The notes under the pieces are model-generated. The model saw nothing but the letters and a program-made list of their open reading frames with translations, made no database searches and had not been told where the DNA came from. Positions 845-62,283 of a DNA stretch of 64,000 nucleotides are shown here, in pieces. Numbering within the stretch: position 1 is the stretch's first letter; every line of letters begins with the position of its first letter. The stretch comes from a virus: the IMG/VR virus record IMGVR_UViG_3300030228_000019. The stretch is one strand, 5' to 3'. A program made the position numbers and the translations under genes.

Positions 845-3800
845 TTATGTTCTAACATTTTCATATAATGCATAGCCATTAATTGATGAGCCAGATATTG
901 ACCTTGTTGAACTTTCAAGAATATACTCAGATTTTGATATATATAAAAGGTTTGTAGTTCCATCATTATTTACCAGTTTGGTGTTTGCAAACCCTCTAAT
1001 ATAAGCATCAGTTTTACACACCTTATTATTACAAAATCCATATGATACACCACTTGGTTCAGAAGGAATTGTTGTATTGAAAGTTCCTGGTGCTATACTG
1101 ATTTGTGTGGTGGTATTATATATAATAATTCCAGCAACTTGTGAATCAGCTACTCTTTCAGGGGTTCCACCTATAATACCACAACTATGATAAAAATTCT
1201 TTGATGTTATAAGATAATTATATAAAGATTGATACTGGGTGACAAAATTGTTGCAAGTGCTTGGTGGTGAATCAGTAATATTTATATTATAACTTTCAAA
1301 TATAGGAACAGTATAACCATAAAATAAATTAAAGGTAGCTGGTTCCACTGGTAAAATTGAATAACTATTTGATAAATTAAAAAAAGTATCATAGCCTGGT
1401 CCTATATTTAAATTTTGCAGAGATTGTATTGTAACAAGTGGTGTATAACCAAATGTTTTAGTATATGCAGAGATTCCTGTGTTTCCACTAGGACCATTAA
1501 TGTCATAATTAGCAGTTCCATTTGAAAATAATGCTGTTGAAATAAGACCACTTTTAGTTACAGTTGAAACCTGTCCATTAATATTTCCAATAACTAAACA
1601 ATTATCAAGTATTCCAGAATCATAACATTTTGTATAATTTCCATTATTTGAAATTGTCTGTGAACTTGAAACAAAATGATTATTATTGGTGTTGTAAAAT
1701 CCTTCTGTTAGGGAGTATGTGGTTCCACTATACAAGTTAATATATTTAGAAGGGGCTGGTAATACAAAAAGATGTTGTGTGGCTATACTTGTGTTTTTTA
1801 TATAACTGCTATCAAAAGAAGTAAAGATGGGACCACCTGTAATATTATAAGGAACAGTTGTCCATCCAAGTGTTGAAAAACTATAAGGTTGACCAACTAA
1901 ATTTGTTGTTATATTTAGTGGAACAAGGTAAATTGCAATTATAGTATAATTATTTTTATCTGACAAACCAGATATTGTTTTACCAGTTACACCAGAAATT
2001 ATTTCATTTTTTATACCACTAACATATGTTTTTGTTGTATTATCATAAATGGTTAATAAATAATTTTTATTTTTTAAATAATTTGAATAATAAAATTTTA
2101 CTGGATTAATATCTATACTATATATTGTTGGTGAACCCTCTAAATAATAAGTTGTTATATTTGTATATGGTTCACTGGTATTAACTGTTGTATAACCAAA
2201 ATTAGTAGAAACAGCATGAGGAATTAATGAAATATCACCAATACTATCAGGATAGTTATACACAGTGATTGTTCCTGTTGATTTTATTATTTTATTAAAA
2301 AGCACTGATACATTTACAGATATAGTATCAATATATGTTTTATTTATTTTTGGATAACTTTGATTAAACAAGATTGCTGCTTCTTGTTCTGTTATATTAA
2401 TTGGTAAAGAAGTTGTTGATGTTGGTGGTGCTTTGTTTGATTTCAAAACTGTTCCATTTTTTAAATAATATGTAAATTGTATTGTGCTTTCTGGTAAATT
2501 TATTGAATAATTTTGTGAATTATATACAAATTTGTTTTTTGTATTTATATAAAAATATGTTGTATTATCACCAGGTATATCTTGGAATATAGCACCATTT
2601 GAATTTCCATACACTGGGTCAAAACTGTTACCCCAGTTTGAATGTGCAGACACCTGATAAAATGAAAAATTATCATTACCACTGTTTAATTCAGGATTTG
2701 AATACATTTCTATTTTTCCAGCATTATTTATATAAACAGTCAAATTATTTATATTTAAATTTGATGTTGTAAGATTATTAGCAACTGCTGTTGGATAAAT
2801 ATCTGATATTAACACATTTTTCCAAGCAGCATTTAAATACCCTGTTCCTGTCACATGACAGTTATTTCCACTGCACCCACCAGTTCCACCACCAGTGGGT
2901 GGAGGTGGTGGTATTACATGATAGTTTGCTATTATTGTAACATTTTGGCAACCATTAAGTGCTTTCCAATTGTAATTAAAACTTTCTGAATTAGAATTTG
3001 AAATTTTATCACCATTGCAATAAACATTTTGTGATACAAAACTTCCACTGCTTGAAGAGGTTGCTGCAAATGTCCATGTAAATCCAAATGTTGTATTTAA
3101 AGTATTAGCTGAAAATACATTTGTTTTATTAAATGTAAAAGTATAAGGTGTTGCTGTATTTGTTTGATTAGACCAGCCTATTAATGAATTTGTTGGTATT
3201 GCATTTGCTGAAAATGTTGTTGAAACACCACCTAAATTACTGGTTGCTTCCCATGAAATTGTTGGTAAACTAATCTTGAAATTAGCAGTATAGTTTGTTG
3301 CATTTACAACAGTAAATGTATAAGGATTTTGTGTTATTGTTGTTCCAGCATGGGTCCAATTACTAAAAGCATAATATGTATTTGCATTTCCAGTTATTAT
3401 TACTGATTTTCCTTTTGGAACAAATTCACTAATATTATTTCCTGTTATAGTTTTATTATTATATGGTGTATATATACTAACATTTCCTCTTGAACTATTT
3501 GAAGTTTTTACACTAATATTATATTCATATTCATAATCAGCTTGTAAGGTGCAGGGTGCAAATGATAATGATTTAACTGTTTGTGATGGATTAAACAAAT
3601 TAAATCCAGTTGAACATGATAATGAAACAGATGTGTTAAAATCAACAAATGCTAATGCTTTGGTCTTTGTTTTTGTTAAAATAGCAGGATAATTAAAAGA
3701 ATAAGGTGCTGCATCCTGATACATTGTATATGGTAAATTTCTTACAGATTGTTGAATACAAAATCTTGAGGCATCAACACCACAAGTAATATTTGTATCA

Positions 3801-4591
3801 TTATTTATTTTATTATTAACATTTGATGTAAACAATATATTTCCAAAATAATTTAATTCAAGTGTTACTGCACCAGTTGCATTTGTAATATTTAATTCTG
3901 TTGTTTGTGAACTTTTATTTTGTAATGTAATTGTTCCACTATAACTTGTTGATAACCAGTTTGTAAAATACAAATCACTTGAAACATTTGTCTGCAATCC
4001 TGTAATTGTATAGACACCATTTGGTAAATAAACAGTTTGACCATTTGAAACTGTTTTTGAGGTTCCTTGCCCATTTACTGTTATGTCCCATGTTCTTGTT
4101 TGAGGAAAAATATAAAAAGTTATAAATTGCCCACCACTAACAGTTGTGTTGGGTGTTATTAAAAAGTTTTCAACAGATAAATAAACCTTTGACCCATCCT
4201 GTTTTGTATAAGATATAAGACTTATGTGTGCATTTGTCTTTGTTAAAGCTGCAAATATTGTTGAGTTTATTGTAGTTGTAAAATTATATTTATTTTGTTG
4301 TCTAATAATACCCTTTGTATATGTTGAATTTGTCATGGGAAGGGTTGTTGTTAAATTATTTATAAAGAATGTAATGTTTTTGGGATTTGTAAAATTGTCA
4401 GGTGTTATTACTGATATTAAAGCTGAATTTGAAGTAAGTGATAACACCTTTACTTGACTAATATCAAGTAGTGGTTTTGCATTTAAAGAAGGTGCTGCAA
4501 AATGATAAGCTAATACTATAAACAAGGCTACAAGAACAATAGCAAAACTTATAAGTATTATATTTTCAGCAATAAACTGTCCTTTTATCAT
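845..4591 (-). CDS. Large pilin-like adhesin (1248 aa) with class III signal peptide
   Basis: MIKG/QFIAE plus hydrophobic helix (Glu at +5); beta-rich Asn/Thr/Ser repeats, InlB-B-repeat-like segment (GNANTYYAFSNWT...YTANF), Pro/Gly linker PPPPPTGGGTGG. Confidence 0.75.
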   Translation of the reverse strand: MIKGQFIAENIILISFAIVLVALFIVLAYHFAAPSLNAKPLLDISQVKVLSLTSNSALISVITPDNFTNPKNITFFINNLTTTLPMTNSTYTKGIIRQQNKYNFTTTINSTIFAALTKTNAHISLISYTKQDGSKVYLSVENFLITPNTTVSGGQFITFYIFPQTRTWDITVNGQGTSKTVSNGQTVYLPNGVYTITGLQTNVSSDLYFTNWLSTSYSGTITLQNKSSQTTELNITNATGAVTLELNYFGNILFTSNVNNKINNDTNITCGVDASRFCIQQSVRNLPYTMYQDAAPYSFNYPAILTKTKTKALAFVDFNTSVSLSCSTGFNLFNPSQTVKSLSFAPCTLQADYEYEYNISVKTSNSSRGNVSIYTPYNNKTITGNNISEFVPKGKSVIITGNANTYYAFSNWTHAGTTITQNPYTFTVVNATNYTANFKISLPTISWEATSNLGGVSTTFSANAIPTNSLIGWSNQTNTATPYTFTFNKTNVFSANTLNTTFGFTWTFAATSSSSGSFVSQNVYCNGDKISNSNSESFNYNWKALNGCQNVTIIANYHVIPPPPPTGGGTGGCSGNNCHVTGTGYLNAAWKNVLISDIYPTAVANNLTTSNLNINNLTVYINNAGKIEMYSNPELNSGNDNFSFYQVSAHSNWGNSFDPVYGNSNGAIFQDIPGDNTTYFYINTKNKFVYNSQNYSINLPESTIQFTYYLKNGTVLKSNKAPPTSTTSLPINITEQEAAILFNQSYPKINKTYIDTISVNVSVLFNKIIKSTGTITVYNYPDSIGDISLIPHAVSTNFGYTTVNTSEPYTNITTYYLEGSPTIYSIDINPVKFYYSNYLKNKNYLLTIYDNTTKTYVSGIKNEIISGVTGKTISGLSDKNNYTIIAIYLVPLNITTNLVGQPYSFSTLGWTTVPYNITGGPIFTSFDSSYIKNTSIATQHLFVLPAPSKYINLYSGTTYSLTEGFYNTNNNHFVSSSQTISNNGNYTKCYDSGILDNCLVIGNINGQVSTVTKSGLISTALFSNGTANYDINGPSGNTGISAYTKTFGYTPLVTIQSLQNLNIGPGYDTFFNLSNSYSILPVEPATFNLFYGYTVPIFESYNINITDSPPSTCNNFVTQYQSLYNYLITSKNFYHSCGIIGGTPERVADSQVAGIIIYNTTTQISIAPGTFNTTIPSEPSGVSYGFCNNKVCKTDAYIRGFANTKLVNNDGTTNLLYISKSEYILESSTRSISGSSINGYALYENVRT

Positions 4592-4636
4592 TAAAGTAAT
4601 ATATATGTTTTATTTTAAATATTAATAGTTATAGAA

Positions 4637-61795: not shown

Positions 61796-61833
61796 ATAAT
61801 CATTTATTTAGTATTGTAAAGGTTTAAAAATGT

Positions 61834-62283
61834 TTACTTAAAATATCCACTATCATTTGCATCTATAAAATAGTTTGTATTATTTTTTTGATATTTTATA
61901 AGTGAAATTAAATATGGAGTATTTAATAAATCACCATAGTTTGTAATTCCATTTTGTGATAAATAAAACACCTTGCCATTATTTGTTGTAAAATCACTAT
62001 GATTGAATGGAACAGTTATTGTTTTATTCCTAACAGTAAATGTTATTGAAATATTATTCATTGTTACATTATCATTAAAGTGTAACTGCCCCTGTATCTG
62101 ACCAGTGCTATTAATTAAAAAACTTTCTTGGGTTAGGTAAAAAACACCAGTTTCATTTTTAATTTTTCCTGTTGTTTTTGAAGTTAAATGATATAGTGCT
62201 GCAAAAAGCACAACTCCTATAACTAAAATAATTGTCAATAAAGTCATATATTCTACTGGAACTTGTGCTTTCATGTTATTCAT
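61834..62283 (-). CDS. Type IV pilin-like protein
   Basis: MKA/QVPVEY plus hydrophobic helix. Confidence 0.8.
   Translation of the reverse strand: MNNMKAQVPVEYMTLLTIILVIGVVLFAALYHLTSKTTGKIKNETGVFYLTQESFLINSTGQIQGQLHFNDNVTMNNISITFTVRNKTITVPFNHSDFTTNNGKVFYLSQNGITNYGDLLNTPYLISLIKYQKNNTNYFIDANDSGYFK

What the first reader, a model, noticed from the sequence alone, without database searches (positions are those of the whole stretch)
845..62283. At least eight class III signal (pilin-like) genes dispersed over 61 kb, 149 to 1248 aa
Seen: K-[A/G/S]/Q-x-x-x-[E/D/P/T] plus a hydrophobic helix at 4591(-), 18084(-), 19364(-), 23672(+), 26153(+), 55560(-), 60265(+) and 62283(-); 52891(-) is a related adhesin lacking the Lys motif. 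Established: K-G/A-Q-x-x-x-E is the EppA-processed euryarchaeal pilin signal, and such genes normally sit in one operon. Inference: an expanded, scattered adhesin repertoire for host or recipient range. No prepilin peptidase was seen, so processing may be borrowed from the host.
Basis: partly seen in the sequence, partly recalled or inferred. Interest (0 to 1): 0.7.

Follow-up and report, generated by a model that had tools for sequence, protein, structure and literature searches.

The report
Pilin-like adhesin genes on archaeal plasmid
A roughly 116-kb, probably circular archaeal mobile element from acid mine drainage carries at least nine surface-protein genes with pilin-type signals, a pilus-type ATPase and a conjugation-like gene cluster but no recognisable signal-cleaving peptidase, and some of its large adhesins share a module with virion proteins of rod-shaped archaeal viruses.

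Summary
Exactly eight ORFs in the window start with K-[A/G/S]-Q followed by a hydrophobic helix, at the stated coordinates (chance about 7e-17). A ninth lies outside the window on the same element. All are predicted extracellular: N-glycosylation sites 3.35 versus 0.71 per 100 aa, charged residues 9% versus 26%, even Cys counts.

The 170-aa member folds confidently (pLDDT 87) as an N-terminal helix plus beta-sandwich, the archaeal pilin shape. Matches to solved pilins are weak.

The window is part of a roughly 116-kb, probably circular, CG-free element from Richmond Mine metagenomes. Diverged relatives keep the pilin–FEN1–FlaI/GspE-like ATPase–VirB4 gene order.

No A24 prepilin peptidase or PilC platform was found on nearly the whole element, so host processing is plausible but the host is unknown.

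Two corrections:
- Scattered pilin genes are normal in archaea.
- In homologues the -1 residue is often L, V or I (16 of 33), which does not fit canonical cleavage.

New here: the C-terminal module of three large adhesins is homologous to rudivirus and lipothrixvirus minor structural proteins.

Best reading: pilin-anchored adhesins and pilus subunits used for cell contact during transfer (confidence 0.55). The scan had noted this cluster and the CG void before, on this same window.

The parts
845..4591 (-). 1248-aa class III-signal adhesin (MIKG|QFIAE); last gene of the minus-strand T4SS-like operon
   Evidence: Motif and helix. 3.9 N-x-S/T per 100 aa, 9.4% charged residues, 14 Cys. Lies 46 bp downstream of 4637-5554. 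Weak paralogy to 49667 and 23672.
17572..18084 (-). 170-aa small pilin-like protein (KA|QTVIEY)
   Evidence: AF2 pLDDT 87.4: helix 3-38 plus beta-sandwich. Only 10 relatives among 1.84e9 representatives, with Q+1 and two Cys invariant. Orthologues sit next to FEN1 and the ATPase in L084, L118 and L119.
18687..19364 (-). 225-aa pilin-like protein (MKA|QIIIP; no Glu at +5)
   Evidence: Motif. The orthologue in L084 starts MILMRGQIVIPF.
23672..25888 (+). 738-aa class III-signal adhesin; N-domain is a paralogue of 17572, C-terminal part carries the DUF2341/rudivirus-like module
   Evidence: 33 homologues with MK-x-Q N-termini. phrog_7548 at 1.8e-19. SBRV1 ORF582 at 4e-21.
26153..28696 (+). 847-aa class III-signal adhesin with an InlB B-repeat-like domain
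   Evidence: Motif. Pfam Flg_new_2 at 1.9e-8. 48% identity over 195 aa to 49667. Nucleotide inverted repeat 27180-27411 / 50673-50904.
49667..52891 (-). 1074-aa related adhesin without the Lys-x-Gln leader (MEEVVEQAIIF + helix)
   Evidence: DUF2341 at 3.7e-8. phrog_7548 at 1.9e-24. Residues 747-1065 are 36% identical to SBRV1 ORF582 residues 266-570, E 1e-30. Extracellular composition.
55078..55560 (-). 160-aa pilin-like orphan with a 17-residue leader (KTFKA|QGAFDSPIT)
   Evidence: Motif. No homologue apart from a 98%-identical variant.
60265..60816 (+). 183-aa small pilin-like protein (YFKA|QTTIEY)
   Evidence: Motif. An identical protein occurs on 23 metagenome contigs of up to 118 kb.
61834..62283 (-). 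149-aa small pilin-like protein (NMKA|QVPVEY)
   Evidence: Motif. Weak similarity to the N-termini of 17572 and 26153.
14284..16209 (+). FlaI/GspE-type (type IV filament) assembly ATPase, 641 aa
   Evidence: PDB: A. fulgidus GspE 2oap at 4.5e-29 and FlaI 4ii7 at 5.5e-22, versus VirB11 at 1.4e-9. NCBIfam: FlaI at 2.9e-30, BasE at 7.7e-24. Position is conserved in L084 and L118.
5688..8690 (-). VirB4-like conjugation ATPase, 1000 aa
   Evidence: Pfam P-loop_TraG at 9e-13. NCBIfam VirB4_plasma at 1.7e-37. Distant matches to Firmicute conjugative plasmids.
11613..14267 (-). FtsK/HerA-like ATPase, 884 aa (candidate coupling protein)
   Evidence: Pfam FtsK_SpoIIIE at 1.4e-6 and DUF87 at 1.6e-5.
55639..56517 (+). 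YdjM-family polytopic membrane protein, 292 aa, divergent from pilin gene 55078; the only polytopic membrane protein in the window
   Evidence: Pfam YdjM at 1.4e-8. Hydropathy scan. A role in pilin processing is pure speculation.

Best explanation
The eight genes, plus a ninth just outside the window, encode class III-signal (type IV pilin-like) surface proteins of a roughly 116-kb, probably circular archaeal extrachromosomal element.

**Proposed mechanism**
- A short K-x leader is followed by Gln+1, often Glu+5, and a hydrophobic helix that anchors the protein N-in/C-out.
- The small proteins (145-225 aa) are filament subunits.
- The large ones (738-1248 aa) are pilin-anchored, possibly tip-located, adhesins built from shuffled modules.
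- The element's own FlaI/GspE-type ATPase (14284-16209) drives assembly.
- Leader removal, if it happens, depends on a host A24 peptidase.
- The likely role is cell-cell contact (mating-pair formation or host attachment) for the adjacent VirB4/HerA conjugation-like apparatus.

**Shown:** the motif, extracellular composition, the fold of one member, the ATPase type, conserved gene order, the mosaic structure, and the absence of a recognisable peptidase or platform.

**Inferred:** cleavage, filament formation, the adhesion role and the host.
For: - **Motif.** The motif is present and non-random.
- **Conservation.** Q+1 is invariant and K-2 nearly invariant in a homology-built alignment, with E/D at +5 in 9 of 10. 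That is a pilin hallmark, not a feature of a generic membrane anchor. 19 of 20 homologues of 23672 keep K-x-Q.
- **Extracellular composition.** N-x-S/T 3.35 versus 0.71 per 100 aa (p 1.4e-5); charged residues 9% versus 26% (p 9e-6); all Cys counts even.
- **ATPase.** It is FlaI/GspE-type rather than VirB11-type.
- **Gene order.** Pilin–FEN1–ATPase–HerA–VirB4 is conserved in elements only about 30-37% identical.
- **Operon position.** The 1248-aa member closes the T4SS-like operon.
- **Adhesin modules.** They are mosaic and homologous to rudiviral and lipothrixviral minor structural proteins.
- **Possible processing source.** Micrarchaeota genomes carry a KAQIALEF-type 944-aa protein and A24 peptidases in 4 of 5 genomes.
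Against: - No PF04021 or NCBIfam pilin hit, and no PDB sequence hit with the family profile.
- Among homologues, -1 is L, V, I, T or N in 16 of 33. From memory of the PibD/FlaK literature, canonical archaeal prepilin peptidases accept only G, A or S at that position.
- No PilC/T2SSF platform was recognised. The only candidate, a 329/345-aa paralogue pair outside the window, failed profile-profile comparison (2.6% probability) and fold search.
- The ATPase could instead act as a VirB11 analogue of the T4SS.
- The host is unknown.
Confidence: 0.55

Rival explanations
1. The proteins are uncleaved N-terminal signal-anchor surface proteins. They stay in the membrane, bindosome- or S-layer-like, and never enter a filament. 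The K-x-Q-x-x-x-E motif serves membrane insertion or oligomerisation rather than peptidase recognition.
For: - The -1 residue varies freely (L, V, I, T or N in 16 of 33).
- Leaders are often only 3 residues long.
- No peptidase or platform is found on the element.
- The ATPase's second-best family is the bindosome ATPase BasE.
- Several relatives lack any leader (MEEVVEQ.., MDAITEV.., MEGVVLE..).
Against: - Invariant Gln+1 and frequent Glu+5 inside the hydrophobic segment are not expected for a plain anchor.
- Small 145-183-aa proteins made of a helix plus one beta-sandwich look like subunits rather than functional surface enzymes or binders.
- A FlaI/GspE ATPase is conserved next to them.
Confidence: 0.25
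2. The element is a virus or virus-plasmid hybrid, and the large proteins are virion or envelope host-recognition proteins rather than cellular pili or adhesins.
For: - The C-terminal module of 49667, 23672 and the 714-aa protein matches phrog_7548 and the rudivirus and betalipothrixvirus ORF562/582 proteins. These are annotated as putative structural proteins and lie next to the ORF1070 minor structural gene.
- The element encodes PolB, primase, TopoVI, Mre11/Rad50, FEN1, Hjc and nucleotide-metabolism genes.
Against: - No capsid or packaging gene was recognised. PHROGs gave nothing for 10 other unknown proteins or for the small pilins.
- VirB4, a HerA/FtsK-like ATPase and a pilus-type ATPase point to cell-to-cell transfer.
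- No match in viral contigs with the VirB4-like protein.
- The pilin model has no significant BFVD match.
Confidence: 0.12
3. The N-termini are ordinary membrane anchors that resemble the motif by chance in an AT-rich, Lys-rich proteome.
For: - No curated pilin family model is matched.
Against: - P is about 7e-17 for 8 of 15.
- The motif is conserved in orthologues at 30-40% identity.
Confidence: 0.02

Closest known systems
Methanococcus maripaludis Epd pili (EpdA-E pilins, EppA peptidase, EpdL ATPase, EpdJ/K platform)
   Same: Processing-site type [K/R]-[G/A]-Q with conserved Gln+1 and Glu+5 (PMC4371748). Several small pilins, including ones not linked to the assembly genes. An archaeal FlaI/GspE-family ATPase.
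   Different: Here the genes lie on a mobile element. No EppA-like peptidase and no EpdJ/K-like T2SSF pair were recognised. PF04021 is not matched. The -1 residue is not restricted to G/A/S in homologues. Several members are 738-1248-aa adhesins.
Sulfolobales Ups pili plus the Ced DNA-import system
   Same: An archaeal type IV pilus used for cell-cell recognition, paired with a VirB4/HerA-type DNA-transfer machine (PMC11868833, PMC9905601; listing).
   Different: Ups and Ced are chromosomal, unlinked and UV-induced, and Ups has its own UpsF platform. Here the two gene sets are adjacent on an extrachromosomal element, and the direction of transfer is unknown.
IncI plasmid R64 thin pilus (PilS/PilV with shufflon)
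   Same: A conjugative element that encodes both a T4SS and a type IV pilus, whose variable adhesin tips set recipient specificity (from my own knowledge, not checked here). It also has mosaic adhesin genes, including an inverted homologous segment.
   Different: R64 is bacterial, carries its own prepilin peptidase (PilU) and platform, and varies PilV with a dedicated recombinase. No invertase or shufflon was seen here.
Rudiviridae/Lipothrixviridae minor structural protein family (SIRV1 ORF562, SBRV1 ORF582; phrog_7548; DUF2341)
   Same: About 300 C-terminal residues are homologous (31-44% identity, E down to 1e-30).
   Different: The viral proteins have no N-terminal helix or class III signal. 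The element's proteins fuse the module to a pilin-type anchor.

Membership tests
Archaeal class III signal peptide / type IV pilin-like proteins | Basic residue at -2, then a small residue (G/A/S) at -1, directly before the hydrophobic segment | tested here: met
   All 8 window genes have K at -2 and A, G or S at -1.
Archaeal class III signal peptide / type IV pilin-like proteins | The -1 G/A/S is conserved across orthologues, as canonical A24 cleavage would require | tested here: not met
   In 33 homologues, -1 is A6, G6, S5 against L5, V5, I4, T1, N1.
Archaeal class III signal peptide / type IV pilin-like proteins | A hydrophobic helix of about 20 residues immediately after the site, and an extracellular C-terminal domain | tested here: met
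   Hydropathy 2.7-3.7. AF2 helix 3-38. N-glycosylation site, charge and Cys statistics.
EppA-type (DUF361/PF04021) pilins | Gln at +1 and Glu at +5 | tested here: met
   Gln+1 in 8 of 8. Glu/Asp+5 in 5 of 8 window genes, and in 9 of 10 of the 17572 family.
EppA-type (DUF361/PF04021) pilins | Match to the Pfam PF04021 model | tested here: not met
   No PF04021 hit at E <= 0.1 for any of the nine proteins, and none in NCBIfam.
Type IV pilin fold | N-terminal alpha-helix packed on a beta-rich globular domain, similar to solved archaeal pilins or archaellins | tested here: inconclusive
Type IV filament machinery | PilB/FlaI-family assembly ATPase | tested here: met
   2oap at 4.5e-29 and FlaI at 5.5e-22. 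NCBIfam FlaI at 2.9e-30, though far below the equivalog cut-off.
Type IV filament machinery | PilC/T2SSF platform protein (PF00482) | tested here: not met
   No PF00482 hit in my Pfam scans or in the precomputed Pfam lists. hhalign of the candidate pair against 12 Micrarchaeota T2SSF proteins gave 2.6% probability.
Type IV filament machinery | A24 prepilin peptidase (PF01478) encoded with the pilins | tested here: not met
   No hit in the window or in the walked element. A local HMM built from 3 Micrarchaeota A24 proteins gave only a spurious hydrophobic match outside the catalytic region. Part of one 1127-aa gene was not seen.
Class III signal processing | Cleavage between -1 and +1 in vivo | not testable with these tools
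   Needs N-terminal proteomics or a peptidase assay.
phrog_7548 / rudiviral ORF562-like structural proteins | Homology over the C-terminal ~300-residue module | tested here: met
   E 1.9e-24. blastp at 1e-30 to SBRV1 ORF582. 45 virus records matched.

The most novel reading that the evidence does not exclude
This family of CG-free archaeal elements uses a non-canonical pilin signal (K-x-Q, with any residue at -1). That signal is either processed by an unrecognised peptidase or assembled without cleavage. The result would be a hybrid type IV pilus plus T4SS mating organelle whose tip adhesins exchange receptor-binding modules with rudiviruses and lipothrixviruses, so that plasmid-like and viral elements share one host-recognition toolkit.
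Probability: 0.15. Interest if true: 0.85.

Novelty: new variant of a known kind. Interest (0 to 1): 0.6.

Why it matters
Very few archaeal conjugation or contact systems are understood. Mobile elements that bring their own pilin and adhesin repertoire, but not the peptidase, have not to my knowledge been described. This reading gives three testable ideas:
- How a large archaeal element from an acidophilic community finds recipient cells.
- Whether class III signals tolerate non-small -1 residues.
- Whether receptor-binding modules move between archaeal viruses and plasmid-like elements.

Existing Richmond Mine proteomes could test the processing question directly.

Tried and rejected
- **Pilin family models.** Pfam, NCBIfam and PHROGs scans of the pilin-like proteins found no pilin family.
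- **PDB profile search.** A profile search with alignment A1 gave 0 hits at E <= 10.
- **Fold searches of the pilin model.** Foldseek against PDB and BFVD gave nothing significant, only generic Ig/TEAD-like sandwiches.
- **Own genome.** No genome is held for this window. Loci from metagenome records cannot be searched as genomes.
- **VirB4-like protein in viral contigs.** No relative found.
- **ATPase in the phage collection.** Only weak, uninformative hits.
- **Candidate prepilin peptidase at 62677-63060.** Rejected. The weak HMM match (E 0.003-0.009) lies in a hydrophobic non-catalytic region and lacks the Asp motifs.
- **Candidate PilC-like pair (L103:6386-7375 and 7384-8421).**
  - The AF2 model is poor (pLDDT 63.5).
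  - Foldseek gave nothing significant; the EpsF cytoplasmic domain appears only among noise rows.
  - hhalign gave 2.6% probability.
  - Homology to T2SSF is therefore not shown.
- **Pilin alignment against 401 genomes of the Micrarchaeota phylum.** Two marginal hits only, so host assignment failed.
- **Homologue search for 55078.** It is an orphan.
- **Literature searches.** No paper describing this element was found.
- **Complex prediction.** Not used. Filaments and ATPase-platform pairs are poor cases for it.

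
Full report
**1. Observation**

Their sizes are 149-1248 aa.
- Gln is at +1 in all eight.
- Glu or Asp is at +5 in five: 845, 17572, 55078, 60265 and 61834.
- K[AGS]Q occurs only 13 times in all ORFs of at least 90 aa, and 8 of these immediately precede an N-terminal helix. The binomial estimate from the window's own residue frequencies is about 7e-17.

**2. What the proteins are**

No curated model recognises them. PF04021 is not hit at E <= 0.1, NCBIfam finds nothing, and only two domain hits appear: Flg_new_2 in 26153 and DUF2341 in 49667. 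Independent evidence still places them outside the cell.
- N-x-S/T sites: 3.35 versus 0.71 per 100 aa in the annotated cytoplasmic proteins of the window (p 1.4e-5).
- Charged residues: 9% versus 26% (p 9e-6).
- Every Cys count is even.

This is the pattern expected for glycosylated, disulfide-bonded surface proteins of acidophiles.

The 170-aa protein (17572) has only ten relatives among 1.84 billion cluster representatives. In their alignment Gln+1 and two Cys are invariant, Lys-2 is nearly invariant, and +5 is Glu or Asp in 9 of 10.

AlphaFold2 on that alignment gives pLDDT 87.4, with a helix at residues 3-38 followed by a beta-sandwich.
- Foldseek finds nothing significant.

This is consistent with a pilin fold but not decisive.

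**3. Context: a large mobile element**

No genome is held for the window. Identical proteins occur in Logan assemblies of SRR191843-5, which are Richmond Mine acid-mine-drainage biofilm runs (PMC3219967).

They also occur on JGI metagenome contigs of 106.7-118.2 kb. Those contigs carry the same genes at different offsets and in both orientations. I read that as a circularly permuted replicon of roughly 116 kb; this is an inference.

I walked nearly all of it. The unseen part is the middle of one gene called as 1127 aa; I assume the 722-aa piece on L100 is its start, which was not verified.

Outside the window the element encodes:
- PolB, a PriX-like primase and a TFB-like protein.
- Mre11/Rad50 and TopoVI A and B.
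- An RNA ligase, and other genes.

Inside the window it encodes:
- FEN1 and an Hjc-like protein.
- NDK, dCTP deaminase and NT5C.
- An SNF2 helicase and a Fic protein.

One more class III gene lies outside the window: L094:1656-2093, 145 aa, MKNYKKTMKGQAFQYP. It sits beside a 714-aa and a 137-aa protein whose N-termini (MDAITEV.., MEGVVLE..) resemble that of 49667.

**4. Machinery**

The minus-strand cluster 14267 to 845 contains, in order:
- an FtsK/HerA-like ATPase;
- small membrane proteins;
- a VirB4-like ATPase (P-loop_TraG 9e-13; NCBIfam VirB4_plasma 1.7e-37);
- the 1248-aa class III protein as its last gene.

The divergent 641-aa ATPase is of the archaeal type IV filament kind. It matches A. 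fulgidus GspE (2oap) at 4.5e-29 and FlaI at 5.5e-22, against VirB11 at 1.4e-9.

Diverged relatives keep the order pilin(s)–FEN1–ATPase–HerA–small membrane proteins–VirB4. These are L084, L118 and L119, whose 17572-family pilins are only 30-37% identical to the window's.

I found no A24 prepilin peptidase and no T2SSF platform.
- Neither appears in my Pfam scans or in the precomputed Pfam lists for all called genes.
- A local HMM built from three Micrarchaeota A24 peptidases gave only a spurious hydrophobic match.
- A paralogous pair of 329- and 345-aa membrane proteins outside the window looked promising, because Micrarchaeota T2SSF genes also come as adjacent pairs of 290-380 aa.
- That pair failed on all three tests: AF2 confidence is low, Foldseek is not significant, and hhalign gives 2.6% probability.

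**5.

(a) Dispersal is normal. [quoted passage not shown] The same review confirms the EppA signature (RAQI/KGQV/KGQL/KGQI, a required Gln+1, and Glu+5). What is unusual here is the density: nine genes on about 116 kb of a mobile element. Five of them flank the transfer cluster.

(b) Among 33 homologues the -1 residue is A, G or S in 17 and L, V, I, T or N in 16, while K-2 and Q+1 are kept. From memory of the PibD/FlaK literature, canonical archaeal prepilin peptidases need a small -1 residue. So either the responsible peptidase is unusually tolerant or many family members are not cleaved. This remains unexplained.

**6. Adhesin modules**

The large proteins are mosaics.
- 23672 shares its N-domain with 17572.
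- 23672, 49667 and the 714-aa protein share a module of about 150-300 aa.
- 26153 and 49667 share another module (48% over 195 aa), which appears as a 73-80% nucleotide inverted repeat 23 kb apart.
- In relative L084 a single 1130-aa protein joins the N-part of 23672 to the C-part of 49667.

The shared C-terminal module hits phrog_7548 at up to 1.9e-24. By tblastn it matches 45 records of Rudiviridae and Betalipothrixvirus.
- It corresponds to SIRV1 ORF562 (DUF2341), which lies directly after the ORF1070 minor structural gene, and to SBRV1 ORF582 (36% identity over about 330 aa, E 1e-30).
- Homologues in ARV3, SSRV1 and Los Azufres virus 1 are annotated as putative structural proteins.
- The viral proteins lack the N-terminal helix.
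- Rudiviral terminal fibres mediate host recognition in SIRV2 (bioRxiv 10.1101/2020.01.16.907410). The role of ORF562 itself was not verified here.

**7. Host**

The host is unknown. Named bins that hold homologues are Micrarchaeaceae (twice), Parvarchaeota, a Saccharolobus MAG and others, which is weak evidence.
- A Micrarchaeota-phylum genome with normal CG content encodes a 944-aa protein starting ..KKAQIALEFLIV.
- Four of five such genomes have PF01478, and all five have PF00482.

A DPANN host could therefore supply both the peptidase and the platform. The pilin family itself, however, was essentially not found in 401 genomes of that phylum.

**8. Verdict**

These are genuine class III-signal, pilin-like surface proteins on a novel mobile element. 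Most likely they are pilus subunits plus pilin-anchored mosaic adhesins that serve contact-dependent transfer.
- Cleavage, filament formation and the host remain inferred.
- The main rival is uncleaved anchored adhesins.
- A virion role is a minor rival, kept alive by the rudivirus module.
- I class the finding as a new variant of a known kind.

Noticed in passing
window 1-64000; loci L084, L087-L104, L118, L119: CG, GATC, GTAC and GGCC each occur zero times in the 64-kb window (about 1,040 CG expected from base composition). They are also absent from all walked parts of the element and from the diverged relative L084. Relative L118 has CG=0 but 71 GATC. Relative L119 has 225 CG. The void is therefore lineage-specific within the family.
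   Followed up: partly
L087, L093, L094, L096, L101, L103 (outside the window): The element is about 116 kb and probably circular (permuted contigs of 116.4-118.2 kb). It encodes PolB, a PriX-like primase, a TFB-like protein, Mre11/Rad50, TopoVI A and B, an RNA ligase, PAPS reductase, AbiEii, an M16 peptidase, a DnaJ-domain protein and a 1772-aa polytopic membrane protein.
   Followed up: partly
window 49670-50794 (-); 23672-25888; L094:2098-4242: The C-terminal adhesin module is homologous to rudivirus and betalipothrixvirus proteins (SIRV1 ORF562, SBRV1 ORF582; phrog_7548), which several virus records annotate as putative structural proteins.
   Followed up: yes
window 52891(-); L094:2098-4242(-), L094:4307-4720(+); L118:8899-10056; L119:6030-8417: A second, conserved N-terminus type, M-[D/E]-x-[I/V]-x-E followed directly by a hydrophobic helix, occurs in proteins of 137-1074 aa. 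It looks like a pilin N-terminus without any leader.
   Followed up: no
L103:6386-7375 and L103:7384-8421: Adjacent paralogous membrane proteins of 329 and 345 aa (33% identical, 3-4 predicted helices each) resemble in size and arrangement the paired T2SSF genes of Micrarchaeota. No homology could be shown.
   Followed up: yes
window 55639-56517 (+): A YdjM-family (predicted membrane hydrolase) protein is the only polytopic membrane protein in the window. It is divergently placed next to the orphan pilin gene 55078-55560.
   Followed up: no
window 5688-8690 (-): The best NCBIfam match of the VirB4-like ATPase is the Mycoplasma ICE family (NF045975, 1.7e-37, far below the cut-off). This may reflect AT-rich composition or a link to wall-less hosts.
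   Followed up: no
G003 (Micrarchaeota MAG behind L070): contigs C15, C19, C21, C42, C47: One 1.7-Mb Micrarchaeota MAG carries about six VirB4-like ORFs of 1029-1140 aa, 27-34% identical to the window's protein.
   Followed up: no
window 32418-32493, 36114-36272: The element carries tRNA-Lys(TTT) and tRNA-Leu(CAA) genes, plus an odd tRNA-like call with a 2-base anticodon. Only the tRNA-Lys reaches the Rfam threshold.
   Followed up: no
window 37911-38328: Direct 50-bp repeats and an 88%-complementary 51-nt inverted repeat lie in a 2.4-kb stretch without long ORFs. This is a candidate replication origin or regulatory region.
   Followed up: no
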